Shown: in pieces, positions 38,637 through 44,992 of the stretch
How positions within the stretch are numbered: the stretch's first letter is position 1
How the letters are laid out: every line of letters starts with the position of its first letter
Assembly: GCF_044647545.1 (NCBI RefSeq)
Contig: NZ_CP172818.1
Length of the DNA: 64,000 bases
Strand: one strand, 5' to 3'
Source of the DNA: Escherichia coli
Lineage (GTDB): Bacteria; Pseudomonadota; Gammaproteobacteria; Enterobacterales; Enterobacteriaceae
Made by a program: the position numbers and the translations under genes
The notes under the pieces: model-generated
Seen by the model: the letters and a program-made list of their open reading frames with translations, nothing else
Told to the model about the DNA's origin: nothing
The model's database searches: none

Positions 38637-39062
38637 TTACCAGTGGCCCATACCCATATGACCGCCACCACCGCAGCCGCCGTAGCCCATGCCCATTCCG
38701 GCTCCGCGCGGAATACCCGCTTCAGCCATCGCAATATCTCGTTTCACCCGTAACTCATCTAACGACTGACGCAAATTCTCCATCTCTTTGGCGACCGCGT
38801 TAATTTTGCTGCTATCCGGTGGGTTCGCGGCTAACAGGGCATTGTATTCATAACGCTTCGTCACCAGTTGCTGTTGCAGTGCGCTGCTTTGAGCGTAAAA
38901 GTCATTATGGATTTTCTGCCACGCTGTCTGTTGTTCGCTGGTCAAAGGCGCGGCATTTTGCTGCCACATACCATGTCCGCCGTGAGCAAATGCCGATGTC
39001 GATCCCATCGCCATTGCTGAAAGCGCCATCATTACCAGGGCAATTTTCGTGTTCCGTTTCAT
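38637..39062 (-). CDS. zraP: Zinc-resistance-associated periplasmic protein ZraP, 141 aa
   Basis: ORF track 38637..39203; start set to ATG 39062 (MKRNTKIALVMMALSAMAMGSTSAFA signal peptide); Gly/His/Met-rich C-terminus. Confidence 0.92.
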   Translation of the reverse strand: MKRNTKIALVMMALSAMAMGSTSAFAHGGHGMWQQNAAPLTSEQQTAWQKIHNDFYAQSSALQQQLVTKRYEYNALLAANPPDSSKINAVAKEMENLRQSLDELRVKRDIAMAEAGIPRGAGMGMGYGGCGGGGHMGMGHW

Positions 39063-39096
39063 GGTTAATCCTCCAGTGGTTGTCTTACTTCGGGTA

Positions 39097-39113
39097 TTGC
39101 ATCTTCCGTGCCA
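39097..39113 (-). promoter_or_regulatory. sigma54 (-24/-12) promoter of zraP
   Basis: Reverse complement TGGCACGGAAGATGCAA matches TGGCAC-N5-TTGCA. Confidence 0.75.
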
Positions 39114-39155
39114 ACGGCGAAACGCTGATATGACGGGTAATCTGGCATGATAAAC

Positions 39156-39201
39156 GAGTAAAAATGACTCGCCTGCTGCGGGTAGCGAGTCATTTTTACT
39201 C
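39156..39201. promoter_or_regulatory. ZraR enhancer sites: two 17-bp inverted repeats in the zraP-zraS divergent region
   Basis: GAGTAAAAATGACTCGC (39156-39172) and its exact reverse complement GCGAGTCATTTTTACTC (39185-39201). Confidence 0.75.
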
Positions 39202-39252
39202 ATTGAAACTTAAGCCTTTGTGTTACAGCGCAGGGTAAGCGCTGATAAAAGA

Positions 39253-39268
39253 TGGCATGATTTCTGCC
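39253..39268 (+). promoter_or_regulatory. sigma54 (-24/-12) promoter of zraSR
   Basis: TGGCATGATTTCTGCC with GG and GC separated by 10 nt, ~30 nt upstream of zraS ATG. Confidence 0.65.
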
Positions 39269-39299
39269 GTCAGAAAGGGATGAGCAGGCAAAGAAGAAG

Positions 39300-40676
39300 A
39301 TGCGTTTTATGCAACGTTCTAAAGATTCCTTAGCTAAATGGTTAAGCGCGATCCTCCCCGTGGTCATTGTTGGGCTGGTGGGGCTGTTTGCGGTGACAGT
39401 GATTCGCGATTATGGGCGCGAGACTGCCGCCGCCAGACAAACGCTGCTGGAAAAAGGCAGTGTACTTATTCGCGCTCTTGAATCCGGCTCGCGCGTCGGT
39501 ATGGGGATGCGCATGCATCATGCGCAGCAGCAGGCCTTACTGGAAGAAATGGCCGGGCAGCCTGGAGTACGTTGGTTTGCGGTCACGGATGAACAAGGAA
39601 CAATCGTGATGCATAGCAACTCCGGCATGGTGGGAAAACAGCTTTATTCCCCGCAGGAAATGCAGCAGTTACATCCGGGAGATGAAGAAGCGTGGCGGCG
39701 GATCGATAGCGCAGACGGCGAGCCTGTTCTGGAAATTTATCGCCAGTTTCAACCGATGTTTGCTGCTGGAATGCACCGGATGCGCCATATGCAGCAATAT
39801 GCCGCGACACCACAAGCAATTTTCATTGCTTTCGACGCCAGTAACATTGTGAGTGCCGAAGATCGTGAGCAGAGAAATACCCTGATTATCCTCTTCGCCC
39901 TGGCGACGGTCTTGCTGGCAAGCGTGTTGTCATTCTTCTGGTATCGTCGCTATCTGCGCTCGCGCCAGTTGTTGCAGGATGAAATGAAGCGCAAAGAGAA
40001 GCTGGTGGCGCTGGGGCATCTTGCGGCAGGTGTTGCCCACGAAATCCGTAACCCACTTTCCTCGATTAAAGGACTGGCGAAATACTTTGCCGAACGCGCG
40101 CCAGCAGGGGGAGAAGCGCATCAACTGGCGCAGGTGATGGCGAAAGAAGCCGACCGTTTAAACCGCGTGGTAAGCGAGTTGCTGGAACTGGTTAAGCCAA
40201 CGCATCTGGCTTTGCAGGCGGTGGATCTCAACACGCTGATTAACCACTCATTACAGCTGGTAAGCCAGGATGCAAACAGCCGGGAGATCCAGTTACGCTT
40301 TACCGCCAACGACACATTACCGGAAATTCAGGCCGATCCGGACAGGCTGACTCAGGTCCTGTTGAATCTCTATCTCAATGCCATTCAGGCTATTGGTCAG
40401 CATGGCGTGATTAGCGTTGTGGCAAATGAAAGCGGAGCGGGCGTGAAAATCAGCGTTACCGACAGCGGTAAGGGAATTGCGGCAGATCAGCTTGAAGCCA
40501 TCTTCACCCCGTACTTCACCACCAAAGCCGAAGGTACCGGACTGGGGCTGGCGGTCGTGCATAATATTGTTGAACAACACGGTGGTACAATTCAGGTCGC
40601 AAGCCAGGAGGGAAAAGGCGCAACGTTCACCCTTTGGCTTCCGGTCAATATTACGCGTAAGGACCCACAAGGATGA
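39300..40676 (+). CDS. zraS: Sensor histidine kinase ZraS, 458 aa
   Basis: ORF track; HEIRNPL H-box and ATPase G-boxes. Confidence 0.94.
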   Translation: MRFMQRSKDSLAKWLSAILPVVIVGLVGLFAVTVIRDYGRETAAARQTLLEKGSVLIRALESGSRVGMGMRMHHAQQQALLEEMAGQPGVRWFAVTDEQGTIVMHSNSGMVGKQLYSPQEMQQLHPGDEEAWRRIDSADGEPVLEIYRQFQPMFAAGMHRMRHMQQYAATPQAIFIAFDASNIVSAEDREQRNTLIILFALATVLLASVLSFFWYRRYLRSRQLLQDEMKRKEKLVALGHLAAGVAHEIRNPLSSIKGLAKYFAERAPAGGEAHQLAQVMAKEADRLNRVVSELLELVKPTHLALQAVDLNTLINHSLQLVSQDANSREIQLRFTANDTLPEIQADPDRLTQVLLNLYLNAIQAIGQHGVISVVANESGAGVKISVTDSGKGIAADQLEAIFTPYFTTKAEGTGLGLAVVHNIVEQHGGTIQVASQEGKGATFTLWLPVNITRKDPQG

Positions 40677-41998
40677 CGCACGATAATATCGATATTCTGG
40701 TGGTGGATGATGACATTAGCCACTGCACTATTTTGCAGGCTTTGCTGCGCGGCTGGGGCTATAACGTGGCGCTTGCGAACAGCGGGCGACAGGCGCTGGA
40801 GCAGGTGCGGGAACAGGTTTTTGATCTTGTGCTTTGCGATGTGCGAATGGCAGAGATGGACGGCATCGCCACGCTCAAAGAGATCAAAGCGTTAAATCCG
40901 GCAATTCCGGTACTGATTATGACCGCGTACTCCAGCGTCGAGACGGCGGTAGAGGCGTTGAAAACCGGGGCGCTGGATTATCTCATCAAGCCGCTGGATT
41001 TCGATAACCTGCAGGCGACGCTGGAAAAGGCGCTCGCACATACGCACAGTGTTGACGCTGAAACGCCTGCGGTGTCTGCCAGCCAGTTCAGTATGGTCGG
41101 TAAAAGCCCGGCGATGCAACACCTGCTCAGTGAAATCGCCCTCGTCGCGCCATCGGAAGCCACGGTGCTGATCCACGGCGATTCCGGCACCGGTAAAGAG
41201 CTGGTCGCCAGGGCGATTCACGCCAGTAGCGCACGTAGCGAAAAACCGCTGGTAACGCTCAACTGCGCGGCGCTCAACGAATCCTTGCTGGAGTCTGAAT
41301 TGTTCGGTCACGAAAAAGGGGCGTTTACCGGGGCCGACAAACGCCGGGAAGGGCGCTTTGTTGAGGCGGACGGCGGCACGTTGTTTCTCGATGAAATTGG
41401 CGATATCTCGCCGATGATGCAGGTGCGTCTGCTACGTGCGATTCAGGAGCGCGAAGTTCAGCGTGTCGGTAGCAACCAGACTATTTCGGTTGATGTCCGG
41501 CTGATTGCGGCGACCCATCGCGATCTTGCCGCAGAGGTGAATGCCGGGCGTTTTCGCCAGGATCTCTACTATCGCCTGAACGTGGTGGCGATTGAAGTAC
41601 CATCGCTGCGTCAGCGGCGGGAAGATATTCCTCTGCTGGCAAACCATTTTCTTCAGCGCTTTGCCGAGCGTAATCGCAAGGCGGTAAAAGGTTTTACGCC
41701 CCAGGCGATGGATCTGCTGATTCACTACGACTGGCCGGGAAATATTCGTGAACTGGAAAACGCGGTGGAACGGGCGGTGGTGCTGCTGACCGGGGAATAT
41801 ATTTCCGAACGCGAGCTGCCGCTGGCGATTGCGAGTACGCCGATCCCGCTGGTACAAAGTCAGGATATTCAGCCGCTGGTGGAAGTCGAAAAAGAGGTGA
41901 TTCTTGCGGCACTGGAGAAAACGGGCGGCAACAAAACCGAAGCCGCCCGTCAGTTAGGGATCACGCGCAAAACGCTCTTGGCAAAACTGTCGCGTTAG
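40673..41998 (+). CDS. zraR: sigma54-dependent response regulator ZraR (NtrC family), 441 aa
   Basis: ORF track; receiver domain, AAA+ Walker [15 protein letters not shown] motif, C-terminal HTH. Confidence 0.95.
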
Positions 41999-44885: not shown

Positions 44886-44992
44886 GGTAAATCCCCTGGA
44901 TTTGACTATTACAGAGAGCGTTAGCTGAATTTTTCGCGAAAAACTCAGCTAACGCCCCTAACGGGGCATCCTTATTTTTCGCCCGCATTGTA

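What the first reader, a model, noticed from the sequence alone, without database searches (positions are those of the whole stretch)
39063..39299. Complete divergent sigma54 control module for zraP / zraSR readable from sequence
The 237-bp zraP-zraS intergenic region contains a near-consensus sigma54 promoter for zraP (TGGCACGGAAGATGCAA, minus strand), a weaker one for zraSR (TGGCATGATTTCTGCC), and between them two 17-bp elements that are exact reverse complements of each other (GAGTAAAAATGACTCGC / GCGAGTCATTTTTACTC) 12 bp apart, matching the expected ZraR enhancer. ZraR carries the GAFTGA sigma54-contact motif. This is known biology, included because the whole regulatory logic is visible in sequence.
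Basis: partly seen in the sequence, partly recalled or inferred. Interest (0 to 1): 0.2.

Follow-up and report, generated by a model that had tools for sequence, protein, structure and literature searches.

The report
Known zraP/zraSR sigma-54 control region

Summary
Every sequence statement in the finding checks out. The window is E. coli. The zraP–zraS spacer is 39063-39299 (237 bp). It holds a sigma-54 promoter for zraP (39113→39097, minus strand) and one for zraSR (39253-39268, plus strand). Between them lie two exact 17-nt reverse-complement elements 12 bp apart.

- **Promoters:** a matrix built from 40 other E. coli sigma-54 ChIP-seq sites ranks these two as numbers 1 and 2 in the 64-kb window.
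- **Published binding:** sigma-54 ChIP-seq, ZraR ChIP-exo and ZraR genomic SELEX in K-12 all map here. K-12's spacer differs at 3 bases, none in the enhancer or PzraP. The strongest ChIP-exo peak maps to window 39160-39192.
- **Conservation:** both promoters and both ZraR sites are near-invariant in five genera.

Refinements:
- Each arm is itself a 17-bp dyad, CGAGT-N7-ACTCG. These are two dimer sites with centres a constant 31 bp apart.
- Exact complementarity between the arms is Escherichia-specific and shows no covariation.
- Escherichia has 11 bp less between PzraP and site 1.
- This strain carries a rare T→C just after the PzraS -12 GC.

Verdict: already known, low interest. One side observation: the ZraS periplasmic sensor domain is deeply dimorphic in E. 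coli.

The parts
38637..39062 (-). zraP coding sequence (141 aa periplasmic Metal_resist/CpxP-like protein). A strong GGAGG ribosome-binding site lies at 39074-39070.
   Evidence: ORF list; RefSeq annotation of an identical genome; Pfam PF13801 at E=5e-23.
39097..39113 (-). PzraP sigma-54 promoter, TGGCACGGAAGATGCAA. The -24 GG is at 39112/39111 and the -12 GC at 39100/39099. The inferred start is 39087, giving a 25-nt leader.
   Evidence: Top matrix score in the window. Identical to K-12 sigma-54 ChIP-seq site OS38, listed distance 25, and to the Salmonella site. Near-invariant in 11 sequences from 5 genera.
39155..39171 (.). ZraR site 1: the 17-bp dyad CGAGT-AAAAATG-ACTCG, centre 39163. It sits at about -76 from the inferred zraP start and -116 from the inferred zraS start.
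   Evidence: The core GRGTAAAAATGACYC is conserved in all 11 sequences. It partly underlies ZraR ChIP-exo peak_9, mapped to 39160-39192.
39172..39185 (.). 14-bp spacer between the two ZraR sites. Its length is constant and its sequence is free.
   Evidence: The spacer is 14 bp in all 11 sequences but varies in sequence.
39186..39202 (.). ZraR site 2: the 17-bp dyad CGAGT-CATTTTT-ACTCA, centre 39194, which is 31 bp from site 1. Its asymmetric core is the mirror image of site 1's core. It sits at about -107 from the zraP start and -85 from the zraS start.
   Evidence: ChIP-exo peak_9.
39217..39238 (.). Partly conserved block TTTGTGT...GCAGGGTAA between site 2 and PzraS. Its role is unknown; a DNA bend or an accessory-protein site is possible.
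   Evidence: Conserved columns in alignments A2 and A3. Only a 2-mismatch match to the IHF consensus overlaps it.
39252..39268 (+). PzraS sigma-54 promoter, aTGGCATGATTTCTGCC. The -24 GG is at 39254/39255 and the -12 GC at 39266/39267. The inferred start is 39279, giving a 21-nt leader. Base 39268 is C here and T in K-12 and in the 10 other sequences aligned.
   Evidence: Second-best matrix score in the window. K-12 sigma-54 ChIP-seq site OS39, listed distance 21. Conservation. Allele counts.
39300..40676 (+). zraS: sensor histidine kinase, 458 aa. The periplasmic domain is encoded by about 39400-39880.
   Evidence: Pfam HisKA and HATPase_c; comparison with K-12.
40673..41998 (+). zraR: sigma-54 enhancer-binding response regulator, 441 aa. 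It has the phospho-acceptor D56, Walker A GDSGTGK at 169-175, GAFTGA at 216-221 (codons 41318-41335) and a C-terminal Fis-type helix-turn-helix.
   Evidence: Pfam Response_reg, Sigma54_activat, AAA_lid_14 and HTH_8; 99% identity to K-12 ZraR; PDB 1OJL ZraR at E=2e-178.

Best explanation
The 237-bp spacer is the known bidirectional control region of the ZraPSR envelope-stress/zinc system.

- **Closed complexes.** RNA polymerase carrying sigma-54 sits at two divergent -24/-12 promoters: PzraP (39113→39097) and PzraS (39253-39268).
- **Enhancer.** Midway between them are two 17-bp dyad sites (CGAGT-N7-ACTCG; centres 39163 and 39194, 31 bp or about three helical turns apart). Each is inferred to bind a ZraR dimer through its C-terminal Fis-type helix-turn-helix.
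- **Activation.** When ZraS senses periplasmic Zn/Pb or envelope stress, it phosphorylates ZraR on D56. ZraR then assembles on the tandem sites into an AAA+ ring and reaches either promoter by looping about 50-60 bp of DNA. Its GAFTGA loops contact sigma-54, and ATP hydrolysis opens the promoter.
- **Outputs.** zraP is induced strongly: it has the better-occupied promoter and a GGAGG ribosome-binding site. zraSR is induced modestly, which gives positive autoregulation. ZraP feeds back on ZraS.

Shown here or in the cited papers: the motifs, their conservation, sigma-54 occupancy, ZraR occupancy, and ZraR-dependent induction. Inferred from family knowledge: one dimer per dyad, ring assembly, looping, and the two start sites.
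For: - **Sequence anatomy:**
- **Promoters:** the sigma-54 matrix ranks the two sites 1st and 2nd in 64 kb.
- **Sigma-54 occupancy:** K-12 ChIP-seq peaks OS38 and OS39 carry these motifs. Their centres are 154 bp apart, as in the window. Salmonella shows sigma-54 binding and sigma-54-dependent transcripts at zraP (16-fold) and hydHG (3.7-fold).
- **ZraR occupancy:** ChIP-exo peak_9, the strongest of the ZraR peaks shown to me (signal-to-noise 73), maps to window 39160-39192 between the two site centres. Genomic SELEX gave 81 of 86 clones from this spacer.
- **ZraR dependence:** deleting zraR in zinc lowers zraP by 12.7 log2 units and zraS by 3.2.
- **Conservation:** in Escherichia, Citrobacter, Salmonella, Kosakonia and Pluralibacter, both promoters and both sites are near-invariant. 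The centre-to-centre distance is 31 bp in all 11 sequences, while the 14-bp spacer and the flanks vary freely.
- **ZraR protein:** it has REC, Sigma54_activat, AAA-lid and HTH_8 domains with GAFTGA, and it matches the solved ZraR structure 1OJL.
Against: - The original in vitro footprint paper (Leonhartsberger 2001, PMID 11243806) is not held. The link between the exact dyads and ZraR therefore rests on a 33-bp ChIP-exo peak, SELEX at spacer resolution, and conservation.
- No experiment has been done on this strain. It has C instead of T right after the PzraS -12 GC, which costs 3.3 bits in my matrix.
- zraS expression in unstimulated LB is unchanged when zraR is deleted (log2 change -0.02). 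A basal ZraR-independent promoter must therefore exist. I could not find one: the sigma-70 consensus scan gave 0 hits.
- A second ChIP-exo peak (window 39047-39072, over the zraP start codon) is not explained by any ZraR-like motif.
Confidence: 0.93

Rival explanations
1. The inverted repeat acts as a nucleic-acid structure, such as an RNA hairpin, a bidirectional terminator or a DNA cruciform, rather than as protein-binding sites.
For: In E. coli the arms are perfectly complementary over 17 nt, extending to 20 nt at 95%. On paper that would make a stable hairpin. A weak Rfam hit to a hairpin family (a plant microRNA precursor) falls on it, at E=0.67 and far below the family threshold.
Against: - Across 11 sequences the variable positions are not compensated between the arms. 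Pairs 147/190 and 159/178 are each broken in 3 sequences, and every covariation measure equals its shuffle mean.
- The conserved feature is the sequence of each dyad (GRGT-AAAAATG-ACYC), not the pairing between arms.
- The repeat lies upstream of both inferred start sites, so neither sigma-54 transcript contains it.
- The terminator scan found nothing.
- ZraR occupies the spot in vivo.
Confidence: 0.02
2. PzraS is not the promoter that matters for zraSR. The operon is driven mainly by an unrecognised sigma-70-type promoter, and the sigma-54 match is a weak or vestigial site, especially with the C allele of this strain.
For: - Basal zraS expression does not depend on ZraR in LB.
- Sigma-54 occupancy at PzraS is about four times lower than at PzraP (score 9 against 39).
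- By plain consensus the site has 3 mismatches.
- The C at 39268 is rare at that position: 1 of the 40 ChIP-seq sites used.
Against: - Sigma-54 does occupy the K-12 site and the Salmonella site.
- TGGCATGAT(T/C)(T/C)CTGC is conserved in all 11 sequences across 5 genera.
- zraS drops 9-fold (3.2 log2 units) without ZraR in zinc.
- The sigma-70 scan found nothing in 38900-39450.
- Bound sigma-54 sites with C at that position exist, for example xdhA and OA05.

The likeliest picture is both at once: a sigma-54 promoter for induction, plus an unidentified low-level basal source.
Confidence: 0.07
3. Conservation of the spacer reflects a small protein-coding gene: the 42-aa 'hypothetical protein' that NCBI's pipeline calls at 39193→39065 in some genomes.
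For: RefSeq annotates it in an identical genome (WP_001298656.1). The ORF starts with ATG and is open.
Against: - It is not annotated in K-12.
- The stretch between PzraP and site 1 is unalignable outside Escherichia and differs by 11 bp, which shifts the frame.
- Conservation comes in blocks that coincide with the promoter and the dyads, not in a codon pattern.
- In Salmonella, stop-free stretches over PzraP are at most 31 aa.
Confidence: 0.02

Closest known systems
E. coli K-12 zraP–zraSR (hydHG) intergenic regulatory region (Leonhartsberger et al. 2001, J Mol Biol 307:93; RegulonDB/EcoCyc entries)
   Same: It is the same locus. The spacer is 237 bp in both. PzraP, both ZraR dyads and the 14-bp spacer are identical. 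As I recall it, that paper's abstract describes ZraR binding 'two inverted repeats separated by a 14 bp spacer'. That matches the 17-14-17 anatomy found here.
   Different: Three base differences: 39117-39118 is GC here and AT in K-12, and 39268 is C here and T in K-12, just after the PzraS -12 GC. The downstream ZraS sensor domain is a different allele.
Salmonella enterica zraP / hydHG control region
   Same: PzraP matches over all 17 bases of the site (its listed 18-mer is TGGCACGGAAGATGCAAG). PzraS is TGGCATGATCTCTGCT. Both are bound by sigma-54. Both dyads are present with the same 31-bp spacing. Gene order is the same.
   Different: There are 11 bp more between PzraP and site 1. Site 2 ends ACCC instead of ACTC, so the two arms are not exact reverse complements.
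NtrC enhancer at glnAp2 (two strong dyad sites about three helical turns apart upstream of a sigma-54 promoter). This entry is from established knowledge and was not tested here.
   Same: Tandem dyad sites for dimers of a response-regulator-type enhancer-binding protein, spaced about 31-32 bp apart on the same face of the helix. They nucleate an AAA+ oligomer that loops to the promoter.
   Different: The recognition sequence differs: TGCACC-N5-GGTGCA for NtrC against CGAGT-N7-ACTCG here. The ZraR enhancer serves two divergent promoters, and it lies closer to them (about -76/-107 and -85/-116).
norR–norVW divergent region (NorR enhancer; PMC2831303)
   Same: An enhancer-binding-protein gene and its target are divergently arranged, with the enhancer sites in the shared spacer. 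Genomic SELEX classifies both as single-target regulators.
   Different: NorR uses three sites and only norVW is sigma-54-dependent. Here there are two sites, and both divergent promoters are sigma-54-dependent.

Membership tests
Sigma-54 (RpoN) -24/-12 promoter | A GG and a GC dinucleotide exactly 10 bp apart, within TGGCAC-N5-TTGCW-like elements, oriented toward the downstream gene. | tested here: met
   PzraP has 1 mismatch. PzraS has the correct spacing. They rank 1st and 2nd by a matrix built from 40 independent sites, and each points at its own gene.
Sigma-54 (RpoN) -24/-12 promoter | Occupied by sigma-54 holoenzyme in vivo, with transcription that depends on RpoN. | not testable with these tools
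   Literature on identical or near-identical sequences: K-12 ChIP-seq peaks OS38 and OS39; Salmonella ChIP-chip and sigma-54-dependent transcripts. This strain's C allele at 39268 has not been tested.
Enhancer (upstream activating sequence) of an NtrC-family enhancer-binding protein | Dyad-symmetric sites, at least two of them, on the same helical face. | tested here: met
   Two CGAGT-N7-ACTCG dyads with centres 31 bp apart. The spacing is invariant in 11 sequences from 5 genera, while the spacer sequence varies.
Enhancer (upstream activating sequence) of an NtrC-family enhancer-binding protein | Located upstream of the -24 element, within looping distance. | tested here: met
   Site centres lie 51.5 bp from the PzraP GG and 60.5 bp from the PzraS GG. 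Outside Escherichia the distances are 62.5 and 59.5-60.5 bp.
Enhancer (upstream activating sequence) of an NtrC-family enhancer-binding protein | Bound by the cognate activator. | not testable with these tools
   Literature on K-12, whose enhancer is identical. ZraR ChIP-exo peak 4201786-4201818 maps to window 39160-39192. Genomic SELEX found this spacer as the single high-affinity target. The base-resolution footprint paper is not held.
ZraR (group I, response-regulator-type enhancer-binding protein) | Receiver domain with a phospho-acceptor Asp; AAA+ sigma-54 interaction domain with Walker A and GAFTGA; C-terminal Fis-type helix-turn-helix. | tested here: met
   Pfam Response_reg, Sigma54_activat, AAA_lid_14 and HTH_8. 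D56, GDSGTGK at 169-175 and GAFTGA at 216-221 are read from the alignment. 99% identity to K-12 ZraR. PDB 1OJL at E=2e-178.
ZraPSR three-component system | zraP divergent from a zraS-zraR operon; ZraP of the Metal_resist/CpxP-like family; ZraS a histidine kinase with a periplasmic sensor domain. | tested here: met
   Gene order hupA-yjaH-zraP / zraS-zraR-purD is conserved in five genera. Pfam domains confirmed. ZraS is only 85% identical to K-12, because its sensor domain is a different allele.

The most novel reading that the evidence does not exclude
The cis-acting logic (two promoters plus the mirrored enhancer) is fixed and already known. In E. coli, however, it is wired to two ancient and very different ZraS periplasmic sensor alleles.

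- The alleles are 59% identical over residues 40-195, while the rest of the protein is 98% identical.
- The window type is found in 4183 of 5426 complete genomes. It lacks a 7-residue stretch of a Cys-containing loop.
- The K-12 type is found in 1236 genomes.
- Each type is also found in other Escherichia lineages.

If the two alleles sense different signals or have different thresholds, then the same enhancer-and-promoter module reports different inputs in different strains. Published Zra work in E. coli, which as far as I know used K-12, would then describe only the minority sensor.

A smaller possibility also remains. The invariant, mirror-oriented AAAAATG cores and the 11-bp length change on the zraP side may encode a helical-phase-dependent geometry that sets how the one enhancer is shared between the two promoters.
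Probability: 0.3. Interest if true: 0.45.

Novelty: already known. Interest (0 to 1): 0.12.

Why it matters
As a finding it matters little. It re-reads from raw sequence a control region that was characterised in 2001 and re-confirmed by genome-wide sigma-54 and ZraR binding maps.

Its value is as a positive control. Promoters, enhancer and activator can all be located from sequence alone, and published in vivo binding data place them at the same coordinates.

The comparative work adds small, testable details:
- the unit of recognition is a 17-bp dyad;
- the spacing between dyads is a fixed 31 bp;
- the 11-bp length change in Escherichia is about one helical turn;
- this lineage carries a rare base change next to the PzraS -12 element.

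The side observation may deserve its own look. E. coli carries two very different ZraS sensor-domain alleles, and K-12 has the minority one. The Zra system is used in zinc and lead biosensors and has been linked to antibiotic tolerance.

Tried and rejected
- **Primary literature.** Neither the original footprint paper (PMID 11243806) nor a review I tried (PMC3429621) is held. Searching the held library for the site sequences returned only sigma-54 promoter papers. I relied on ChIP-exo supplement coordinates instead.
- **A third sigma-54 site.** TGGCATGAT occurs again at 39143-39151, inside a direct repeat AARCGCTGATA...TGGCATGAT (39120-51 against 39237-61). I rejected it. It scores 6.6 bits with no GC at -12. 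The 9-mer is already lost in E. whittamii and E. albertii, and the region is unalignable outside Escherichia.
- **IHF site.** Only 2-mismatch matches to WATCAANNNNTTR were found, and none is conserved.
- **Sigma-70 promoter or terminator in the spacer.** None found.
- **RNA element.** There is no covariation. Rfam gave only sub-threshold chance hits.
- **Other ZraR-like sites in the 64-kb window.** None with fewer than 3 mismatches.
- **Comparative set.** The single-protein scan of genome contigs returned only Escherichia and Citrobacter. I added Salmonella, Kosakonia, Pluralibacter and C. rodentium through a protein search and exact-protein contig look-ups.
- **Prior description of the ZraS dimorphism.** Two literature searches found nothing relevant. 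One of them was badly framed, so this absence is weak evidence.

Full report
**What the window is.** The 3.4 kb around the finding is 100% identical to several complete E. coli chromosomes, for example FDAARGOS_497 and ST648. It is present in 5420 of 5426 complete E. coli genomes. RefSeq annotation and the ORF list give the gene order hupA, yjaH, zraP (minus strand), then zraS and zraR (plus strand), then purD. The zraP start codon is at 39062-39060 and the zraS start codon at 39300.

**Checking the promoters.**
- TGGCACGGAAGATGCAA is at 39113→39097 on the minus strand, one mismatch from TGGCAC-N5-TTGCW.
- TGGCATGATTTCTGCC is at 39253-39268 on the plus strand, with the correct GG-N10-GC register.
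- A plain consensus search cannot separate the second site from chance. The window has 38 hits with up to 2 mismatches against 39 expected, and PzraS has 3 mismatches.
- I therefore built a position matrix from the 40 other intergenic sigma-54 ChIP-seq motifs listed by Bonocora et al. (PMC4591121), leaving out zraP and zraS.
- Over both strands of the 64-kb window, PzraP scores highest (15.4 bits) and PzraS second (14.5 bits). About 0.7 sites at or above 14.5 bits are expected per shuffled window.
- The two best sites in 64 kb thus lie 154 bp apart in one spacer, each pointing at its own gene.
- The same paper reports sigma-54 ChIP-seq peaks on exactly these motifs in K-12: OS38 for zraP (enrichment 39) and OS39 for zraS (enrichment 9). 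Their motif centres are 154 bp apart, and the listed distances to the genes are 25 and 21 nt.
- Those distances equal the leaders I infer from starts at 39087 and 39279.
- In Salmonella the corresponding sites are bound by sigma-54, and both transcripts are sigma-54-dependent (PMC3844500).

**Checking the repeat.** The two 17-nt elements, 39156-39172 and 39185-39201, are exact reverse complements with 12 nt between them. The match extends to 20 nt at 95%. It is one of only six inverted-repeat pairs of at least 15 nt with arms at most 40 nt apart in the whole window. The 15-mer core has no other match in the window with fewer than 3 mismatches.

**Is it the ZraR enhancer?**
- The window's spacer differs from K-12 at only three bases (39117, 39118, 39268). 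None is in the repeat or in PzraP, so K-12 experiments transfer.
- In the ChIP-exo supplement of Choudhary et al. (PMC7657598), the strongest of the ZraR peaks shown to me is 4201786-4201818, with signal-to-noise 73. Anchoring the zraP start (4201688) on window 39062 puts this peak at 39160-39192. That lies inside the 48-bp element 39155-39202, with its centre about 2.5 bp from the element's centre of symmetry.
- Genomic SELEX with purified ZraR recovered this spacer as the single high-affinity target: 81 of 86 clones (PMC8249747).
- Deleting zraR in zinc lowers zraP by 12.7 log2 units and zraS by 3.2.
- I could not read the original footprint paper. From memory, its abstract describes two inverted repeats separated by a 14-bp spacer.

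**Anatomy, refined by comparison.** I aligned the spacer from the window, K-12, E. whittamii, E. albertii, four Citrobacter, Salmonella, Kosakonia and Pluralibacter. Conservation is sharply blocky:
- the zraP ribosome-binding site and start codon;
- PzraP;
- two copies of (C/T)G(A/G)GT-AAAAATG-AC(T/C)C(G/A) in mirror orientation;
- a partly conserved TTTGTGT...GCAGGGTTA block;
- PzraS.

The element is best described as two 17-bp sites separated by 14 bp. The centre-to-centre distance is 31 bp in all 11 sequences, while the 14-bp spacer varies freely in sequence. Three helical turns between two dyads is the classic layout for two dimers of an NtrC-family activator on one face of the helix (family knowledge).

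Exact arm-to-arm complementarity is not the conserved property.
- Outside Escherichia the R and Y positions of the half-sites vary independently.
- A formal pair count shows broken pairs at the variable columns.
- No covariation measure exceeds its shuffle mean.
- The repeat lies upstream of both inferred starts, the terminator scan finds nothing, and Rfam has no family above threshold.

Together these points exclude a hairpin, terminator or cruciform reading.

The seven-base core AAAAATG is asymmetric, invariant, and mirrored between the sites. This suggests that it is read by ZraR or bends the DNA directionally. That is inference only.

**Distances.**
- In E. coli and E. whittamii, site 1's centre is 51.5 bp from the PzraP GG (50.5 bp in E. 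albertii). In the other four genera it is 62.5 bp, an 11-bp difference of about one helical turn.
- Site 2's centre is 59.5-60.5 bp from the PzraS GG in every sequence.
- This fits a face-of-the-helix constraint on looping but does not prove one.

**The activator.** ZraR in the window is 441 aa and 99% identical to K-12 ZraR. It has receiver, sigma-54-interaction AAA+, AAA-lid and Fis-type helix-turn-helix domains. D56, Walker A at 169-175 and GAFTGA at 216-221 are all present. It matches the solved ZraR structure 1OJL at E=2e-178.

**Mechanism.**
- Shown: sigma-54 holoenzyme occupies both promoters, ZraR occupies the tandem dyads, and induction by zinc requires ZraR.
- Inferred from the family: phospho-ZraR assembles into a ring at the two sites, loops to either promoter, and uses ATP and its GAFTGA loops to open the closed complex.
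- The unequal outputs (zraP far above zraSR) fit three observations: higher sigma-54 occupancy at PzraP, a perfect GGAGG ribosome-binding site for zraP, and a poor AAGAAG for zraS.
- Loose end 1: zraS expression in plain LB does not depend on ZraR, so a basal promoter exists that I could not find.
- Loose end 2: a second ChIP-exo peak maps to 39047-39072, over the zraP start codon, where there is no ZraR-like motif. It may reflect cross-linking through the looped polymerase complex. That is a guess.

**Strain-specific detail.** Base 39268, immediately after the PzraS -12 GC, is C in the window and T in K-12 and in the other 10 aligned sequences. A 41-nt query centred on the base finds the C form in 82 of 5426 genomes and the T form in at least 5028. 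C at this position is rare among bound sigma-54 sites (1 of 40) but does occur, at xdhA and OA05. It costs 3.3 bits in my matrix. Its effect is untested.

**Side observation.**
- ZraS is 458 aa here and 465 aa in K-12. All the divergence sits in the periplasmic sensor domain.
- DNA identity falls from 97-100% to 43-75% between about 39400 and 39880, including a 21-bp length difference, and then returns to 98%.
- The two alleles are 59% identical over residues 40-195. That is as far apart as either is from Citrobacter or Salmonella (59-67%).
- The window-type segment is in 4183 of 5426 genomes and the K-12 type in 1236.
- Each type also occurs in other Escherichia lineages.
- I found no description of this in the held literature, but those searches were weak.

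**Verdict.** The feature is the already-known zraP/zraSR control region. Interest is low (0.12). The only mildly new points are the comparative refinements and the sensor-domain dimorphism noticed in passing.

Noticed in passing
window 39400-39880 (zraS, periplasmic sensor domain): ZraS is deeply dimorphic in E. coli. The window allele (458-aa protein, lacking a 7-residue stretch of a Cys-containing loop) and the K-12 allele (465 aa) are 59% identical over residues 40-195, while the rest of the protein is 98% identical. DNA identity drops to 43-75% with sharp edges. The window type is in 4183 of 5426 complete genomes and the K-12 type in 1236. Each type is shared with other Escherichia lineages.
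   Followed up: partly
window 39268: There is a T→C change immediately after the -12 GC of PzraS. It is found in 82 of 5426 E. coli genomes, and all 10 other aligned sequences have T. It lowers the sigma-54 matrix score by 3.3 bits.
   Followed up: yes
window 39114-39154: Escherichia has 11 bp less (12 bp less in E. albertii) between PzraP and ZraR site 1 than Citrobacter, Salmonella, Kosakonia and Pluralibacter. That is about one helical turn, so the phase is kept.
   Followed up: yes
window 39047-39072: A second ZraR ChIP-exo peak from K-12 (4201673-4201698, signal-to-noise 34) maps onto the zraP start codon and ribosome-binding site. No ZraR-like motif is there. It may come from cross-linking through the looped polymerase complex.
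   Followed up: no
window 39217-39238: A partly conserved block, TTTGTGT...GCAGGGTAA, lies between ZraR site 2 and PzraS across five genera. No convincing IHF or sigma-70 match was found, and its role is unknown.
   Followed up: partly
window 39065-39193 (minus strand): NCBI's pipeline annotates a 42-aa 'hypothetical protein' (WP_001298656.1; MTRYPQQASHFYSF...) in some genomes. It runs through ZraR site 1 and PzraP. It is absent from K-12's annotation and incompatible with the 11-bp length change in other genera, so it is probably a spurious call.
   Followed up: partly
window 38637-39203 (minus strand): The zraP frame stays open upstream to an ATG at 39203, giving a 188-aa mechanical ORF. Several database 'ZraP' entries are 174-186 aa, apparently mis-called N-terminal extensions that read across the promoter and enhancer.
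   Followed up: no
window 39120-39151 and 39237-39261: A direct repeat, AARCGCTGATA...TGGCATGAT, lies on either side of the enhancer. The upstream copy has no -12 GC (6.6 bits). Its TGGCATGAT is already lost in E. whittamii and E. albertii, so it was judged to be chance or a vestige.
   Followed up: yes
window 44918-44955: A 38-bp near-perfect palindrome (GCGTTAGCTGAATTTTTCGCGAAAAACTCAGCTAACGC) lies just upstream of the purH start. It is the longest hairpin-type inverted repeat in the window.
   Followed up: no
K-12 expression data (PMC7657598 supplement): Deleting baeR changes zraP strongly: +6.1 log2 units in ethanol and -4.3 in LB. This hints at cross-talk between the Bae and Zra envelope-stress systems. 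I did not look for a BaeR site in the spacer.
   Followed up: no
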